Assembly: GCA_009914755.4 (NCBI GenBank)
Contig: CP086569.2
Location: forward strand, 10,496,001-10,560,000
From: the human T2T-CHM13v2.0 reference genome, Homo sapiens
Length of the DNA stretch: 64,000 nucleotides
Direction of reading: 5' to 3'
In this document: piece by piece, positions 1 to 20,379 of the stretch
Layout: every line of letters starts with the position of its first letter
Numbering within the stretch: position 1 is the first letter of the stretch
Translations under genes and position numbers: made by a program
The notes under the pieces: generated by a model
Databases searched by the model: none
The model's input: the letters and a program-made list of their open reading frames with translations, nothing else
What the model was told of the DNA's origin: nothing

Positions 1-337
1 ATACCCACAAGTCGGGAAGGGTAGGCCACCCCTTCACTCACCAGCAAAAAGATTATGACTTGGTAAAGCTCAGATATTCATTAGTATTTTTCAGCAATAA
101 GGTATTTTAAGTTAAGGTATGTACATAGTTTTTTAGACATAATGTGATTACTAATTAATTAATTAATAATTATTAAATACTCATTAGACTACAACATAGT
201 TTAAGCATAACTTTTATAAACACTGGGAAACAAAATGTTAATGTGACTAACTTGATTGTAACATTTGCCTTATTGTGGTTGTCTGGAACGAAACCCACAC
301 TATCTCTGAGTATGCTTGTAGGTTTTTGGTTGTTCTT

Positions 338-490
338 TGTTTTGAGATGGGGTTTCACTCTGTCACCCAGGCCAGAGTGCAGTGGCATGATCATAGCTCA
401 CTGCAGCCTCAAACAGCTGGGTCAAGTGACTGTTCTACCACAGCCTCCTGAGTAGCTGGGACTACAGGCATGCAGCACTATGTCTGGCTA
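338..490 (-). mobile_element. Alu fragment (antisense; right arm through A-rich linker)
   Basis: Matches the antisense Alu consensus (gagatggggtttcactctgtcacccaggc...gggactacaggcatgc...ggctattttt). Abutted by the poly-T of the next Alu. Confidence 0.85.
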
Positions 491-797
491 TTTTTTTTTT
501 TTTTTTTTTTTTTTTTTTTGAGACAGAGTCTCACTCTTTCGCTCAGGCCAGAGTGCAGTGGTTATCTCGGCTCACTGCAAGCTCTGCCTCCTGGTTTCAT
601 GCCATCCTCCTGCCTCAGCCTCCTGAGTAGCTGGGACTACAGGTGCCCAAACCAGGCCCGGCTAATTTTTTGTATTTTTAGTAGAGACCGGGTTTCACCA
701 TGTTAGCCAGGATGGTCTCGATCTGCTGACCTCGTGATCTGCCCGCCTCGGCCTCCTAAAGTGCTGGGATGACAGGCGTGAGTCACCGCACCTGGCC
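491..797 (-). mobile_element. Alu element, full length, antisense (poly-T tract 491-519)
   Basis: Sequence (T)n gagacagagtctcactctttcgctcaggc...cctcggcctcctaaagtgctgggatgacaggcgtgagtcaccgcacctggcc is the canonical Alu in reverse complement. Confidence 0.95.
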
Positions 798-1105
798 TGC
801 CTTTTCTTTCTAGTGGCACAAGCCCCATGGAGTGTGGTGCGTCCGATCTTCGATGCTTTTGAACAGTGTAGAAAGTATTGCTGTTTGAATTTAATTTTTT
901 ACTACATGTATGGTCTCGATAGATCACAAGAAGATCAATAAGCCCTTCTCCTTATTCTACTTCCCTTTCTAGCAATGGAGAACTTTGATTGGATGTTTCC
1001 TGCCTACAGACAGGAATGAGTCTGCTGTTTTCTTTTTTAAACCTGAGGGGACTCAGCTTGAGGGCCTCGAGCATGGCCACCCTCCCCCAACCCCCAACTG
1101 GTGAT

Positions 1106-1180
1106 TCTGGTGGTGGTGGTGGTTTTGTGTTCCAGCTTCTGTTTTGTTGTTGTTGTTGCTGCTGCTGCTGCTGGTCCTGT
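1106..1180. repeat. compound trinucleotide microsatellite (GGT)n(TTG)n(TGC)n
   Basis: Contains ggtggtggtggtgg, ttgttgttgttg and ctgctgctgctgctg. Confidence 0.9.
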
Positions 1181-1537
1181 CATCATTGTTTTGGTATTTT
1201 ACAGACTCAGGAGGTGTACGTGCTTGTTTGTTAGATCGGCATACTACTGCCTCCAGTTGTAGAAGTGGACCTCCAGTGTATCCAATACCCACGTGGTGAA
1301 CGTTGTCTCCGACGGGTGATTTATTCATTCCTCGTCCCCTTCCTACCCTCCTCCTCCCTTTTGGAGTGTCTGTTATTTCCATCTTGATGACCATGTGCGT
1401 ACCCACTGTTTACCTCCCACTTGTAAGCAGAAGGCAGTTCACTGGGTACATACTTGCTTCCAGCTCTATCCATGTTGTGGGAAAAGACGTGAAATTGCTC
1501 TTTTTTGTGCCTGTACCATTGGAGAATTTTAACTTTC

Positions 1538-1640
1538 TTGGTGGTTGTTTTTCTTTTTTCTTTTCTTTTCTTTTCTCTTCTTTTCTTTAATTTTCTTTTC
1601 TTTCTTCGTCCTCCTCCTCCTTCTTTTTTCATTTTTTTCA
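1538..1640. repeat. polypyrimidine (TTTTC)n-like simple repeat
   Basis: ttttcttttcttttctcttcttttctttaattttcttttctttcttcgtcctcctcctcc. Confidence 0.85.
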
Positions 1641-17564: not shown

Positions 17565-17862
17565 TTTTATTTTTTTTGGACAGTTTCACTCTTGTTGCCC
17601 ACGCTGGAGTGCAAGGGCACCGTCATGGCTCACCGCAACCTCCTCCTGCCATGTTCAAGCAATTCTCCTGCTTCAGCCTCCTGAGTAGCTGGGATTACCG
17701 GCGTGTGCCACCACACCCGGCTGATTTTGTATTGTTAGTAGAGACGACATTTCTCTATGTGGGTCATGCGGGTCTCAAACTGGCAACCTCAGGTGATCTG
17801 CCCACCTTGGCCTCCCAAAGTGCTGGGATGACAGGAGTGAACAATTGCGCCCGCCCGGCTAT
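17565..17862 (-). mobile_element. Alu element (antisense)
   Basis: ttttttttggacagtttcactcttgttgcccacgctggagtgcaagggcaccgtcatggctcaccgcaacctcctcc...cttggcctcccaaagtgctgggatgacaggagtgaac..gcgcccgcccggct. Confidence 0.93.
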
Positions 17863-17904
17863 GTTTTTTTTTTTTAATTTTCAATTTTAATCTATTTAAT
17901 CTTC

Positions 17905-18196
17905 TTATTATTTTTTGAGATGGAGTCTCGCTCTCTTGCCCAGACTGGAGTGCAGTGGCATGATGTCGGCTCACTGCAAGCTCTGCCTCCCGGGTTCATG
18001 CCATTCTCCTGTCTCAGCCTCCCAAGTAGCTGGGACTACAGGCGCCCGCCACCACACCTGGCTAACTTTTTGTATTTTGAGTAGAGACGGGGTTCTTGTG
18101 GTAGCCAGGATGGTCTCTATCTCCTGACCTCCGTGATCCACCCGCCTCGGCCTCCCAAAGTGCTGGGATTACAGGCGTGAGCCACCGCGCCCGGCC
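17905..18196 (-). mobile_element. Alu element (antisense), relatively young
   Basis: ttttttgagatggagtctcgctctcttgcccagactggagtgcagtggcatgatgtcggctcactgcaagctctgcctcccgggttcatgccattctcctg...cctcggcctcccaaagtgctgggattacaggcgtgagccaccgcgcccggcc. Confidence 0.95.
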
Positions 18197-18254
18197 TATT
18201 TATCTATTTATTAACTTTGTGTCCAGGTTAGGAAACCACGTAGTTTTTGTATTT

Positions 18255-18362
18255 TTTTAGAGACGAGATTTCACCATGTTGCCAAGGCTCCGGATCGAGG
18301 GATCCACCTTCCCTTGCTCCCAAAGGGCAGGGATGACAGGCGTGAGCCTACCGCGCCCGGCT
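18255..18362 (-). mobile_element. Alu 3'-half fragment (antisense) directly abutting the 5'ETS-derived sequence
   Basis: gagacgagatttcaccatgttgccaaggct...cccaaagggcagggatgacaggcgtgagcctaccgcgcccggct. Confidence 0.85.
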
Positions 18363-18374
18363 CCCCCTTCCCCC

Positions 18375-20379
18375 CTCCAGCTTATCCCTCAGGTGCCTGA
18401 GGCCCAGCAGTGCTGTGTGGTTCCCACCCCCAGCGCCCCCTCCTCCAGTCACCGCCGCGGTGTCTGCAAATGGGTCCTAAGGGAGCTCGTTGGTGTGGGG
18501 GTTGAGGCGGTAGATGGAGACGTGCCCCTCCCATGCAGGGAAGGGCTCCGCCTGGTCTGGCGAACTCAGGTCCAGTGCTCCCCTCTGGTGGGTGCGCGCT
18601 GGCTGTGTGAGCGATCGCGGTGGGCTCGGGCAGGCGACGCGTGCGCCGGCCGGCCGCCGAGGGGGCTACCGTTCTGCCTCCGACAGGTTGTGTGTGGGTT
18701 TACTTGGAGGTGCTTTGCCTGGGAGAAAGGAGGCGGGTGGACGGGGCGGGGGCCCTTGCGGGATTGCGCGCACGCGCAGTGGTCAGGACCCCCGCCCAGA
18801 CTGCGACGGCTCAAGGTTCCCACACGCAGAATTTTCCTGGTATGCAGGCCCCCTCCCTTCCCCAGGCGTCCCTGAGCACCTCTGCGGGCCTGACGAGGGG
18901 CGACTGGGGGTAGGGAGTGTGACCCACCCTCAGTGAGAAAGCCTTCTGTAGCGATCCAAGAGGTGTGCATTTGGGGTACGGGATCCCCCGGCCTGCCGCC
19001 TCTCTCTGCGTTATGGTAGCGCTGCCATAGCGACTCGCTTGCAGAGGACCCTCCTCCGCTTCCCCCTCGACGGGGTGAGGGGGGGAGATGGAGGGTTCCA
19101 CAGGCCTCCGCGGTGGGGACTGGGGGCGGCTCATCCTTTCCAGATGGGGGAGGATCCCAGCGGTCGGTGCCGGCGTCCTAGTGGTTGGGAGGCTATGCAA
19201 GCGGTGGCTGTGCCTGGCATTCCGTCCGGCGCATGACCCGCTCCACTGTGAGCCGGCTCTCCGCCCGCTCGCCTGGGGAGCAGCGACTGGTGCCGATGAC
19301 CGTGTTTGCGTGGCACGGGGTTGGGCCACCTGGCCCTGGGAAGCATCCCAAGTGGGGGCCACGCCGGTCTCCCGGAGCTTAACCGGGTGGGAGGATGGAC
19401 GAGAAATGAGCAACGTGGCCCTGGCGTTGGGTTTGTGGCTGAGGTCGCTTTGGGGTCCCGATGGCGGGAACCAGGGCTCGTGAGGCGGGTCTCGGTGGGT
19501 GCCGAGGGCCATCTGGCGTCCTAGGCGGGCTGCCGAGGGACCTCCCTCGTGTCTGTGGTGGTGGGATCCCATGGTCGCGTTTTCCTGGTGGCCCGGCCAT
19601 GCCTGAGGTTTCTCCCCGAGCCGCCCCTCTGTGGGCTCCCGGGTGACCTTGCCCTCGCGGTCCCTGGTGTTTCCTGTCTGTGACCCCCACCCCACCCGCG
19701 GATCCTCTCTCCCTGAGCGGCTCACCCGCTTAGGCTGTGGTGGCCCCCTCTGGGACCAAACCCAGCTCTGCCTTGTGGGGCGCTGCCGGGGGCCACTGGT
19801 TGGCCCTTTGTTCGTGTCCCCGGGTGTGCACCTTCGGGACCAGGTGGGCGGCGCCCCGCGTGGGCCTGGTGGGCGCCCGGAGGGTTTGGAGTCAGCCTGC
19901 GGCGCGTGCAGGAAAGAGGGTTCCGGGGGCTGGCCGTGACGGCGGCGGCGATGGGGGAGCCGCAGGCCCGCCGAAGGCCAGTCGACCACTCCTGGTACCG
20001 CGCAGGGTCGCCTTCGTGCTCGGAGGCCGCTGGTGGTGAGACCCTGGGCACTGCAGTCCGCCTGTGGTTCGCTGCCCAAACGTTGGGGCCGCCCCGTGCC
20101 GGCCTTGCACGAGTGGCTGCTGGTCACTCACAGCTGCCACGCACGGGTCGGGTGGTCTGCCTCCTCGCACGTTGGTGCGAAGGGTTCGGAGTGGTGAGCA
20201 GGTCGGGGGATGTTGTGTCATGTGGGTGTATGGGATGTCCGGTTTGCCCCACCACCACCCCCCTCCCACCGCCCCACGTTGCTTCCCTCCCTCCCACATA
20301 CCCCGTTGCCTTCCCTGCCATGCCCATCCTCACGACTTGGACTCCTGGCTCATCCTCGTGAGGCCCGGAGGCCGCTTTC
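18375..20379 (+). pseudogene. rDNA 5' external transcribed spacer (distal ~2 kb only), decayed copy; promoter and 5' part of ETS absent
   Basis: Recognisable homology to the human 45S 5'ETS. Compare ccctcaggtgcctgaggcccagcagtgctgtgtggttcccacccccagcgccccctcctccagtcaccgccgcggtgtctgc with CCCTCAGGTGCCCGAGGCCGAACGGTGGTGTGTCGTTCCCGCCCCCGGCGCCCCCTCCTCCGGTCGCCGCCGCGGTGTCCGC. Compare gccggccggccgccgagggggctaccgttctgcctccgacaggttgtgtgtgggtttacttggagg with GCCGGCCGGCCGCCGAGGGGCTGCCGTTCTGCCTCCGACCGGTCGTGTGTGGGTTGACTTCGGAGG. Also present are gtgtgacccaccctcagtgagaaagccttctgtagcgatc, ttatggtagcgctgccatagcgactcgcttgcagaggaccctcctccgcttccccctcgacgggg and gaccgtgtttgcgtggcacgggg. Most differences are CpG to TpG/CpA. 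The region is contiguous with 18S downstream. The UCE/core-promoter motif (..TATATGCTGACACGC..) was not found. Confidence 0.85.

What the first reader, a model, noticed from the sequence alone, without database searches (positions are those of the whole stretch)
1..18375. Upstream 18 kb looks like decayed rDNA intergenic spacer (CDC27 pseudogene, Alu cluster, long CT tracts) but with promoter and proximal 5'ETS replaced by Alu/L1 insertions
A CDC27 pseudogene is a published landmark of the human rDNA IGS a few kb upstream of the promoter. Here a frameshifted CDC27 copy (13.5-15.5 kb, minus strand) sits ~3 kb upstream of the 5'ETS-derived sequence. It is surrounded by the Alu-rich, microsatellite-rich, CT-tract-rich sequence typical of the distal IGS. 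If that reading is right, the whole 24 kb (IGS to ITS2) is one contiguous relic unit. The CDC27 retro-insertion into the IGS would then predate the event that stranded this copy. The Pol I core promoter/UCE and roughly the first third of the 5'ETS are missing; I could not find TATATGCTGACACGC-like sequence. In their place are a twin-primed L1 (15547-16743), a 540-bp unassigned segment (16750-17290) and four Alus (17311-18362). The copy was therefore never transcribable after this deletion, or the promoter region was destroyed by insertions.
Basis: partly seen in the sequence, partly recalled or inferred. Interest (0 to 1): 0.62.

Follow-up and report, generated by a model that had tools for sequence, protein, structure and literature searches.

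The report
Ancient stranded rDNA spacer relic
This is a dead 23.5-kb piece of a primate ribosomal RNA gene repeat (spacer plus 18S and 5.8S) stranded beside centromeric satellite DNA roughly 25 million years ago; it lost its promoter in a single 6.3-kb deletion, and relics of this kind are already documented, so it is ordinary.

Summary
Window 797-24293 is one contiguous, same-strand, decayed copy of an rDNA unit. It runs from canonical human IGS position ~16.4 kb to 38.5 kb and then from 5'ETS +839 to ITS2, at 75-91% identity. The CDC27 pseudogene has the same position, strand and extent (aa 1-638) as in the active repeat, and the two copies share 12 derived residues.

The claim that Alu/L1 insertions replaced the promoter is wrong. 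The "540-bp unassigned" segment and the four Alus are ordinary IGS (canonical 36.76-38.48 kb). Only the twin-primed L1 is a private insertion, with a 13-bp target-site duplication. One 6,327-bp deletion at a TTGTC microhomology removed the last 5.5 kb of IGS, the promoter and 5'ETS +1 to +838.

The relic is old. It keeps a ~720-bp segment found in macaque rDNA but replaced by an Alu in all apes. It has one Long Repeat where human and chimpanzee have two. It branches outside crown apes with 100% bootstrap. Separation was on the early hominoid stem, very roughly 25-27 Myr ago.

Degraded rDNA units near centromeres are already described (Robicheau 2017). Interest is low to moderate.

The parts
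337..797 (-). Two antisense Alu elements (partial 337-487; full 489-797) sitting exactly at the left edge of the rDNA-derived DNA. Window 1-336 to their left has no rDNA homology.
   Evidence: blastn against the Alu consensus. No non-Alu match of 1-796 to human IGS or to the macaque segment.
797..1514 (+). IGS segment that survives in macaque rDNA but is absent from all ape rDNAs, which have an antisense Alu there. It includes a GCT/GTT repeat and what I read by eye as an old antisense L1 3' fragment. This is the ancestral state.
   Evidence: 797-1175 aligns to the macaque IGS row of the published alignment at 82.4% over 380 nt (E 2e-106). 1154-1232 and 1447-1566 follow collinearly. The ape rows carry an Alu instead.
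1515..6136 (+). IGS block A, canonical human 16615-21216. It includes the single Long Repeat copy and 8 Alu segments, all shared with the canonical unit.
   Evidence: 84.5% identity over 4,442 aligned nt with no indel above 115 nt. Alu correspondence.
6137..7290 (+). CT-rich microsatellite block. It corresponds to canonical CT block 1/2, which is ~2.6 kb and present twice in human.
   Evidence: TRF. Position between block A and the post-CT sequence.
7291..9116 (+). IGS block B, canonical 28361-30160. It holds a full-length Alu (7544-7838) that is 5'-truncated by about 85-90 nt in the human unit.
   Evidence: 89.2% identity over 1,699 nt. Alu extents.
9117..10276 (+). Second CT-rich block, corresponding to canonical CT block 3 (about 30161-31440).
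   Evidence: TRF. Flanked on both sides by collinear blocks.
10277..15545 (+). IGS block C, canonical 31425-36757. It contains the CDC27 pseudogene.
   Evidence: One 5.3-kb blastn HSP at 87.3%. The mafft alignment gives 88.9% over 5,234 nt with no indel of 20 nt or more.
13517..15426 (-). CDC27 processed pseudogene, aa 1-638 of 824, with frameshifts and 3 stops. It is orthologous to the one in the active IGS at canonical 34725-36655, also on the minus strand.
   Evidence: tblastn with CDC27 (identical to PDB 5g04_F). Same end points in both copies; 12 shared derived residues, 60 private to the window, 85 private to the canonical copy.
15546..16741 (+). Private twin-primed L1 insertion. The inverted 5' piece runs from 15546 to about 16168 (ORF2p aa 839-1034 on the minus strand). 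The direct 3' piece runs from about 16169 to 16741 (ORF2p C-terminus, 3'UTR, A-rich tail). It is flanked by a 13-bp target-site duplication at 15533-15545 and 16742-16754.
   Evidence: PDB matches to LINE-1 ORF2p. The duplication was read directly. The element is absent from the canonical unit, where the flanks are contiguous at 36753-36759.
16744..18378 (+). IGS block D, canonical 36751-38478. All of it is ordinary IGS.
   Evidence: 88.5% identity over 1,616 nt. One-to-one Alu correspondence with canonical Alus at 37310-38459.
18374..18386 (+). Deletion junction. Canonical IGS ~38484 is joined to 5'ETS +839 within a shared TTGTC (now TTATC). 6,327 bp are missing: the last 5.5 kb of IGS, the promoter with its upstream control element, and 5'ETS +1 to +838.
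   Evidence: Local alignments of both sides overlap at the junction. Coordinates and deletion length. The deleted segment has only Alu-to-Alu matches elsewhere in the window. The promoter motif is absent.
18375..20383 (+). 5'ETS remnant, canonical +832 to +3656. It carries a 697-nt deletion next to 18S and contains the Rfam mir-663 match (19509-19598).
   Evidence: 75.0% identity over 1,987 nt. Rfam RF00957 at 89 bits. The hairpin folds no better than shuffled sequence, z -0.12.
20384..22231 (+). Full-length but decayed 18S rRNA pseudogene.
   Evidence: Rfam SSU_rRNA_eukarya, 1277.8 bits, model positions 1-1831. 91.1% identity to human 18S.
22232..24293 (+). ITS1, 5.8S (23283-23434) and most of ITS2. 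The relic ends at canonical ~7686, about 240 nt before 28S.
   Evidence: Rfam 5.8S at 121.5 bits. 76.5% identity. The blastn HSP ends at 24293. No rDNA homology from 24294 to 64000.

Best explanation
Window 797-24293 is a non-functional fossil of one stretch of a tandem rDNA array. It runs from about 3 kb into the intergenic spacer of one unit, across the unit boundary, to ITS2 of the next unit.

Shown here:
- It left the concertedly evolving arrays after the CDC27 retro-copy had been fixed in the spacer.
- It left before the changes shared by all living apes: the Alu-associated replacement at canonical ~16.4 kb and, later, the human and chimpanzee Long Repeat duplication.
- Outside the arrays it lost CpGs.
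- It acquired one twin-primed L1.
- It lost 0.7 kb of 5'ETS.
- It lost 6.3 kb spanning the promoter in a single deletion between two TTGTC motifs.

Inferred:
- Separation was on the early hominoid stem, roughly 25-27 Myr ago by a crude clock.
- The CpG loss is methylation-type decay.
- The deletion mechanism was microhomology-mediated end joining or replication slippage.
- The fragment was moved to pericentromeric DNA by duplicative transposition. Monomeric alpha satellite begins 1.85 kb to its right.
- It does nothing today: it has no Pol I promoter, no 28S and a mutated 18S.
For: Collinearity:
- Five collinear same-strand blocks span canonical 16615-38478 and then +832 to 7686, at 75-91% identity.
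- Every Alu segment within 1515-18378 has a canonical counterpart. The only private element is the L1 with its target-site duplication.

CDC27:
- The CDC27 copy has identical limits and strand in both sequences. There are 12 shared derived residues, 60 private to the window and 85 private to the canonical copy.

Deletion:
- The junction alignments overlap at TTGTC. The 6,327 missing bp occur nowhere else in the window.

Age:
- Window 797-1566 matches the macaque IGS segment that all apes lack.
- The second Long Repeat is present only in the human and chimpanzee rows of the published alignment. The relic has one copy.
- On 1,217 complete columns, 18 sites group all five apes against macaque plus relic, and 0 sites put the relic inside the great apes. 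NJ bootstrap is 100%, or 99.6% without CpG columns.
- The relic branch (66 changes) equals the human path from the same node (18+17+19+6+6 = 66).

Decay and context:
- CpG observed/expected is 0.27-0.67 in the relic against 0.64-1.10 in the canonical unit.
- Alpha satellite occupies 26.1-61.6 kb.
- PMC6281188 reports the cdc27 pseudogene in apes but not monkeys.
Against: - The genomic address and the species of the window are unknown, so 'outside the arrays' rests on the flanks alone.
- Macaque is the only outgroup. Placing the relic on the ape side of the ape/monkey split rests on the paper's statement that monkeys lack the cdc27 copy. I could not check that statement, because the stored alignment is cut before that region.
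- The tree uses only about 1.2 kb of sequence.
- Concerted evolution makes 'species' rDNA lineages imperfect clocks. The orangutan branch is anomalously long (64 changes).
- The reference sequences were typed by hand from supplement text. Line lengths and the total length were checked, but a few typing errors are possible.
- The timing of the deletion relative to the stranding is unknown.
- Transposition versus in-situ decay of an old array cannot be decided from one window.
Confidence: 0.85

Rival explanations
1. One reading: the promoter and proximal 5'ETS were destroyed or displaced by the L1 and Alu insertions now found between the CDC27 copy and the 5'ETS.
For: An L1 and four Alus do lie between CDC27 and the 5'ETS remnant.
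Against: - The four Alus and the 540-bp segment align base for base with canonical 36751-38478 at 88.5% identity, so they predate the relic.
- The L1 has an intact 13-bp target-site duplication. Its flanks are contiguous in the canonical unit, so it deleted nothing.
- The break is a direct IGS-to-5'ETS junction with no inserted DNA.
Confidence: 0.02
2. A young copy: an array-edge or recently transposed human rDNA unit that diverged fast, like the distal and proximal junction pseudogenes at present-day arrays.
For: Rapid CpG decay could inflate divergence in GC-rich parts.
Against: - The relic branches outside all living apes, even without CpG columns.
- It retains a macaque-type segment that every ape has lost.
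- It has one Long Repeat where human and chimpanzee have two.
- It retains fuller Alu copies than the human unit.
- Divergence in the AT-rich, CpG-poor CDC27 region is still 11%.
Confidence: 0.03
3. In-situ remnant: the relic is what is left of a former nucleolus organiser next to a centromere, rather than a fragment transposed into pericentromeric DNA. The age and decay are the same as in the best explanation; only the route differs.
For: - The relic lies 1.85 kb from 35 kb of monomeric alpha satellite.
- It spans a unit boundary (IGS into the next 45S), as expected for a piece of an array.
- Robicheau et al. raise this possibility and describe such a unit at the vestigial centromere of chromosome 2.
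Against: - Only one partial unit is present. No rDNA homology exists to the right of 24293 or left of 797.
- The left edge coincides with Alu elements, which I recall as typical of duplicative-transposition junctions. That is memory, not a test.
Confidence: 0.25
4. The relic is retained because part of it still works, for example as a mir-663-type microRNA locus or as a source of a non-coding transcript.
For: Rfam mir-663 match above the gathering score, 89 against 75 bits.
Against: - The match is simply 5'ETS homology. miR-663a lies in the canonical 5'ETS (bioRxiv 10.1101/2025.11.10.687711).
- The segment folds no better than shuffled sequence, z -0.12.
- Substitutions are spread evenly and CpG decay is general.
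Confidence: 0.05

Closest known systems
Degraded near-full-length rDNA units near centromeres (four on human chromosome 20, one at the vestigial centromere of chromosome 2, others on chromosome 21). Robicheau et al. 2017, PMC5381670.
   Same: - Both IGS and 45S parts are present and collinear with the canonical unit.
- Their chromosome 20 example has about 22 kb of IGS plus about 8 kb of 45S and crosses the zero coordinate of the unit, as this one does.
- The units are highly diverged and lie next to centromeric DNA.
   Different: - I cannot show that this window is one of their loci.
- That paper does not mention the CDC27 copy, loss of the promoter, or a date. Those details are worked out here.
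Canonical human rDNA intergenic spacer (Gonzalez and Sylvester 1995; Agrawal and Ganley 2018, PMC6281188).
   Same: Same order and orientation of the Long Repeat, CT blocks, Alus and cdc27 pseudogene over canonical 16.6-38.5 kb.
   Different: - 11-25% diverged.
- One Long Repeat/CT unit instead of two, and CT blocks of 1.15 kb instead of 1.3-2.6 kb.
- A macaque-type segment instead of the Alu at 16.4 kb.
- A private L1.
- Missing: IGS 13.3-16.4 kb, IGS 38.5-44.0 kb, the promoter, 5'ETS +1 to +838 and 28S.
rDNA pseudogenes at the distal and proximal junctions of present-day arrays (discussed in PMC5381670).
   Same: They are rDNA units that have escaped homogenisation and are decaying.
   Different: Those are described as evolutionarily younger than the displaced units. 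This copy predates crown apes.
MIR663A and MIR663B loci. That these annotated microRNA genes sit in rDNA-derived DNA outside the arrays is my recollection, not tested here.
   Same: Rfam mir-663 match inside the 5'ETS remnant.
   Different: The sequence differs from the canonical 5'ETS hairpin at many positions and shows no folding signal.

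Membership tests
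Primate 45S rDNA repeat unit (as a derivative of it) | IGS collinear with the reference IGS in order and orientation | tested here: met
   Blocks 1515-6136, 7291-9116, 10277-15547 and 16744-18378 match canonical 16615-38478 on the same strand at 84.5-89.2%.
Primate 45S rDNA repeat unit (as a derivative of it) | cdc27 pseudogene in the IGS at the same site and strand (hominoid rDNA landmark) | tested here: met
   aa 1-638, minus strand, same flanks in the window and in the canonical unit.
Primate 45S rDNA repeat unit (as a derivative of it) | 18S and 5.8S rRNA genes downstream in the same orientation | tested here: met
   Rfam: 18S at 20384-22231 (1277.8 bits) and 5.8S at 23283-23434 (121.5 bits), both on the plus strand.
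Functional rDNA unit | Pol I core promoter and upstream control element at the IGS/5'ETS boundary | tested here: not met
   Canonical 38484-43972 plus +1 to +838 is deleted. The promoter motif has 0 matches at up to 3 mismatches, and the deleted segment has only Alu matches in the window.
Functional rDNA unit | 28S rRNA gene and terminator repeats | tested here: not met
   No LSU match in Rfam. Homology ends in ITS2 at 24293, with no rDNA homology beyond that point. IGS 13.3-16.4 kb is absent.
Functional rDNA unit | Membership of a homogenised tandem array (near-identity to other units) | tested here: not met
   9-25% divergence from the canonical unit. Flanked by non-rDNA sequence and alpha satellite.
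Displaced degraded rDNA units (Robicheau 2017 class) | Both 45S and IGS parts, in canonical order, highly diverged | tested here: met
   Description of the class.
Displaced degraded rDNA units (Robicheau 2017 class) | Centromere-proximal location on a chromosome region without an rDNA array | tested here: inconclusive
   About 35 kb of 171-bp alpha satellite begins 1.85 kb to the right. The chromosome cannot be determined with these tools.
Twin-primed L1 insertion | Inverted 5' L1 segment abutting a direct 3' segment with an A tail, the whole flanked by a target-site duplication | tested here: met
   The minus-strand ORF matches ORF2p aa 839-1034 and the plus-strand ORF matches aa 1229-1274. 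The A-rich tail and 13-bp duplication were read.
Processed pseudogene (CDC27) | Intronless copy of the coding sequence with disabling mutations | tested here: met
   Continuous coverage of aa 1-638 in about 1.9 kb with frameshifts and 3 stops. A poly(A) tail and the nature of the 3' end (sequence after aa 638 resembles a 5' splice site) were not examined.

The most novel reading that the evidence does not exclude
The relic is a datable molecular fossil of the stem-hominoid rDNA spacer. It was frozen after the CDC27 insertion but before every change shared by living apes. It can therefore serve as an internal outgroup to set the direction of spacer evolution: the Alu replacement at 16.4 kb, the Long Repeat duplication, the CT-block expansions and the GC/CpG gain in the active arrays. 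It might also mark the site of a nucleolus organiser that was lost next to a centromere early in ape evolution.
Probability: 0.5. Interest if true: 0.4.

Novelty: already known. Interest (0 to 1): 0.28.

Why it matters
The practical value is annotation. The window contains no hidden gene or regulatory system. It holds a dead rDNA fragment whose 18S, 5.8S, mir-663 and CDC27 matches should all be labelled as pseudogenic.

For rDNA evolution it gives a small but clean result. A copy that escaped concerted evolution about 25 Myr ago preserves the ancestral spacer layout. It shows which features of the modern human spacer are derived. It also shows that the active arrays and the relic have accumulated similar numbers of changes, while only the relic has lost its CpGs. 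Finally, it illustrates that a promoter can be lost through one microhomology deletion rather than through transposon bombardment.

Tried and rejected
- The look-up of encoding contigs with the 257-aa chimeric L1/flank ORF, to learn the source assembly: nothing on record.
- Exact scans of metagenome contigs and genome contigs for the 24-nt deletion junction: 0 hits.
- A relaxed 18-nt junction pattern gave 25 and 13 loci. All came from environmental or bacterial contigs, and none shares similarity with the window. These are chance matches, so human contamination could not supply paralogues.
- Pfam scan of the L1 ORFs: only sub-threshold noise. The PDB sequence search identified them instead.
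- The first attempts at translating reference ranges failed because of stops or the wrong frame.
- The first CDC27 three-way count was distorted by an out-of-frame HSP and was redone.
- The idea that the mir-663 match marks a live hairpin was dropped after folding.
- The idea that window 800-1514 was foreign flanking DNA was dropped once the macaque row of the published alignment showed the same sequence.
- I did not use my recollection of the rDNA sequence or of the miR-663 precursors as evidence.

Full report
**What is in the window**

Rfam finds a complete 18S (20384-22231), a 5.8S (23283-23434) and a mir-663 match (19509-19598). All three are on the plus strand, and there is no 28S. Tandem Repeats Finder shows two CT-rich blocks of about 1.15 kb (6137-7290 and 9117-10276). 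From 26.1 to 61.6 kb it shows arrays of 171-bp alpha satellite in alternating orientation. The DNA is therefore primate and pericentromeric.

**Reference used**

No human genome is searchable with these tools. The S1 Appendix of Agrawal and Ganley 2018 (PMC6281188) holds a complete human rDNA unit taken from GL000220.1. I read parts 1-5 and typed the sequence into a script. Every line was checked to be 80 nt and the total is 43,972 nt. The interior of 28S and the three CT blocks were replaced by N. A few typing errors are possible, but they cannot create the kilobase-scale alignments described below.

**Collinearity**

blastn and mafft give a single same-strand chain:

| Window | Canonical unit | Identity | Note |
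|---|---|---|---|
| 1515-6136 | 16615-21216 | 84.5% | includes the Long Repeat |
| 6137-7290 | CT block 1/2 | - | CT block |
| 7291-9116 | 28361-30160 | 89.2% | |
| 9117-10276 | CT block 3 | - | CT block |
| 10277-15547 | 31425-36757 | 88.9% | no indel of 20 nt or more |
| 15546-16741 | absent | - | private L1 |
| 16744-18378 | 36751-38478 | 88.5% | |
| 18375-20383 | 5'ETS +832 to +3656 | 75.0% | 697-nt deletion |
| 20384-22231 | 18S | 91.1% | |
| 22232-24293 | ITS1, 5.8S, ITS2 up to 7686 | 76.5% | |

Nothing to the right of 24293 resembles rDNA. Every Alu segment between 1515 and 18378 has a counterpart at the matching canonical position and strand.

**CDC27**

My recalled human CDC27 sequence proved identical to PDB 5g04_F. 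tblastn places aa 1-638 on the minus strand at window 15426-13517 and at canonical 36655-34725. Both copies have frameshifts and stops. Both end at the same residue and lie in the same flanks. Of 638 residues, 12 carry the same derived state in both copies, 60 are changed only in the window, 85 only in the canonical copy, and 9 are changed differently in each. One retro-insertion therefore preceded the separation, and only briefly: shared changes are about 13% of the total per lineage.

**What replaced the promoter: nothing**

In an intact unit they lie 5.5-7.2 kb upstream of the start site.

The L1 is a textbook twin-primed insertion:
- The minus-strand ORF at 15547-16134 matches L1 ORF2p aa 839-1034 (E 1e-114).
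- The plus-strand ORF at 16373-16516 matches the ORF2p C-terminus, aa 1229-1274.
- An A-rich tail follows.
- AAACTCACCAGTT is duplicated at 15533-15545 and 16742-16754.
- In the canonical unit the two flanks are adjacent, so the L1 removed nothing.

The real lesion lies 1.6 kb further right. At 18374-18386 the spacer sequence (canonical ...CCCCCGCTTGTCTTCCC, TTGTC at 38484) passes directly into the 5'ETS (...CCGGGTTGTCCCTCAGG, TTGTC at +839). The window reads CCAGCTTATCCCTCAGG. One deletion of 6,327 bp at a 5-bp microhomology therefore removed the last 5.5 kb of spacer, the promoter and the first 838 nt (23%) of the 5'ETS. The deleted DNA has only Alu-to-Alu matches elsewhere in the window, and a 28-nt promoter probe finds nothing at up to 3 mismatches.

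**Left edge and an unexpected ancestral segment**

Window 1-1514 showed no match to the human spacer apart from Alus. The published six-primate alignment (S6 Appendix, parts 19-21) explains why. Just left of the shared motif GTTGGAGAATC, all five apes carry an antisense Alu. Macaque instead carries about 700 nt of other sequence, which I read by eye as including an old antisense L1 fragment. The window has the macaque-type sequence. Window 797-1175 aligns to it at 82.4% (E 2e-106), and 1154-1232 and 1447-1566 follow in order. The relic thus starts at 797, directly after two Alus (337-797). Window 1-336 is unrelated; it looks to me like a Tigger-type transposon end, but that is memory only.

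**Age**

Four independent characters agree.
1. The relic has the CDC27 copy, which the literature reports in apes but not monkeys.
2. It lacks the Alu-for-segment replacement shared by all apes, gibbon included.
3. It has one Long Repeat/CT unit. In the published alignment the second copy exists only in human and chimpanzee. It also keeps longer versions of two Alus than the human unit does.
Among 1,217 complete columns, 18 sites unite all apes against macaque plus relic, 17 unite the great apes and 19 unite human, chimpanzee and gorilla. No site places the relic within the great apes. Neighbour-joining puts the relic between macaque and crown apes with 100% bootstrap, or 99.6% after removing CpG columns.

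The relic's terminal branch has 66 changes. The human path from the same node also has 66 (18+17+19+6+6). Taking crown apes at about 18.5 Myr (my own calibration, not tested here), the split falls near 27 Myr, and the implied ape/monkey split falls near 30 Myr. These figures are rough. They rest on 1.2 kb, one outgroup and concertedly evolving sequences.

**Decay**

CpG observed/expected is 0.27-0.45 in the relic's spacer blocks against 0.64-0.81 in the canonical unit. It is 0.46-0.67 against 1.03-1.10 in the transcribed parts. This is the pattern expected for methylated, unconstrained DNA. The mir-663 match is 5'ETS homology, since miR-663a lies in the canonical 5'ETS. The segment folds no better than shuffled sequence.

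**Comparison with what is known**

Robicheau et al. [quoted passage not shown] Their example has about 22 kb of IGS and about 8 kb of 45S and crosses the unit's zero coordinate, much as this one does. They do not discuss CDC27, loss of the promoter or dates.

The kind of object, and probably this very locus or a paralogue, is therefore already known. What is added here is the anatomy, the correction of the replacement idea, and the placement on the hominoid stem. Attempts to find the locus or its paralogues in the searchable collections failed.

**Verdict**

It is wrong about how the promoter was lost. The element is inert.

Noticed in passing
window 26145-61644: About 35 kb of 171-bp alpha satellite, 73-83% matches between monomers, some with 342-bp dimer periodicity. 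It lies in blocks of alternating orientation: 26.1-30.8 kb one way, 33.3-38.0 kb the other, 39.2-41.3 kb, 41.3-43.6 kb and 45.3-59.6 kb. The GC skew flips to match. This looks like divergent monomeric pericentromeric alphoid rather than a homogeneous higher-order array.
   Followed up: no
window 24294-26144: An AT-rich 1.85-kb stretch (about 36% GC) between the end of the rDNA relic (in ITS2) and the first alpha-satellite monomer. It has no rDNA or Alu homology and its origin was not determined. It is the right-hand junction of the relic.
   Followed up: no
window 1-336: The sequence left of the boundary Alus ends in ...GGAACGAAACCCACACTATCTCTGAGTATGCTTGTAGG. I recognise this from memory as the terminal part of a Tigger-type DNA transposon. 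No tool was used to test it. The left edge of the relic abuts two Alus (337-797), one apparently interrupting the other.
   Followed up: no
window 13490-13520 (minus strand) and canonical 34700-34725: In both copies the CDC27 homology stops at aa 638 (…HYNAW). The next bases read G|GTAAGTG, a consensus 5' splice site. The retro-copied transcript may therefore have run into an intron rather than being a full-length mRNA. The 3' end and poly(A) tail of the retro-copy were not located.
   Followed up: partly
window 20384 (canonical 5'ETS ~2960-3656): A second deletion of 697 nt removes the 3' end of the 5'ETS immediately upstream of 18S in the relic. The exact end points are uncertain because the flanking alignment is poor.
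   Followed up: partly
canonical human rDNA compared with the relic, all blocks: The active human spacer has much higher GC and CpG content than the relic: for example 55.6% against 48.4% GC in block A and 47.7% against 41.9% in block C. At the protein level the canonical CDC27 copy has accumulated more private changes (85) than the relic (60). This hints that GC-biased change in the arrays, and not only CpG loss in the relic, contributes to the divergence.
   Followed up: partly
window 19509-19598: The Rfam mir-663 match (89 bits, gathering score 75) lies inside the decayed 5'ETS. Its predicted fold (-37.8 kcal/mol) is no better than shuffled sequence (z -0.12). Automated annotation would wrongly call a microRNA gene here.
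   Followed up: yes
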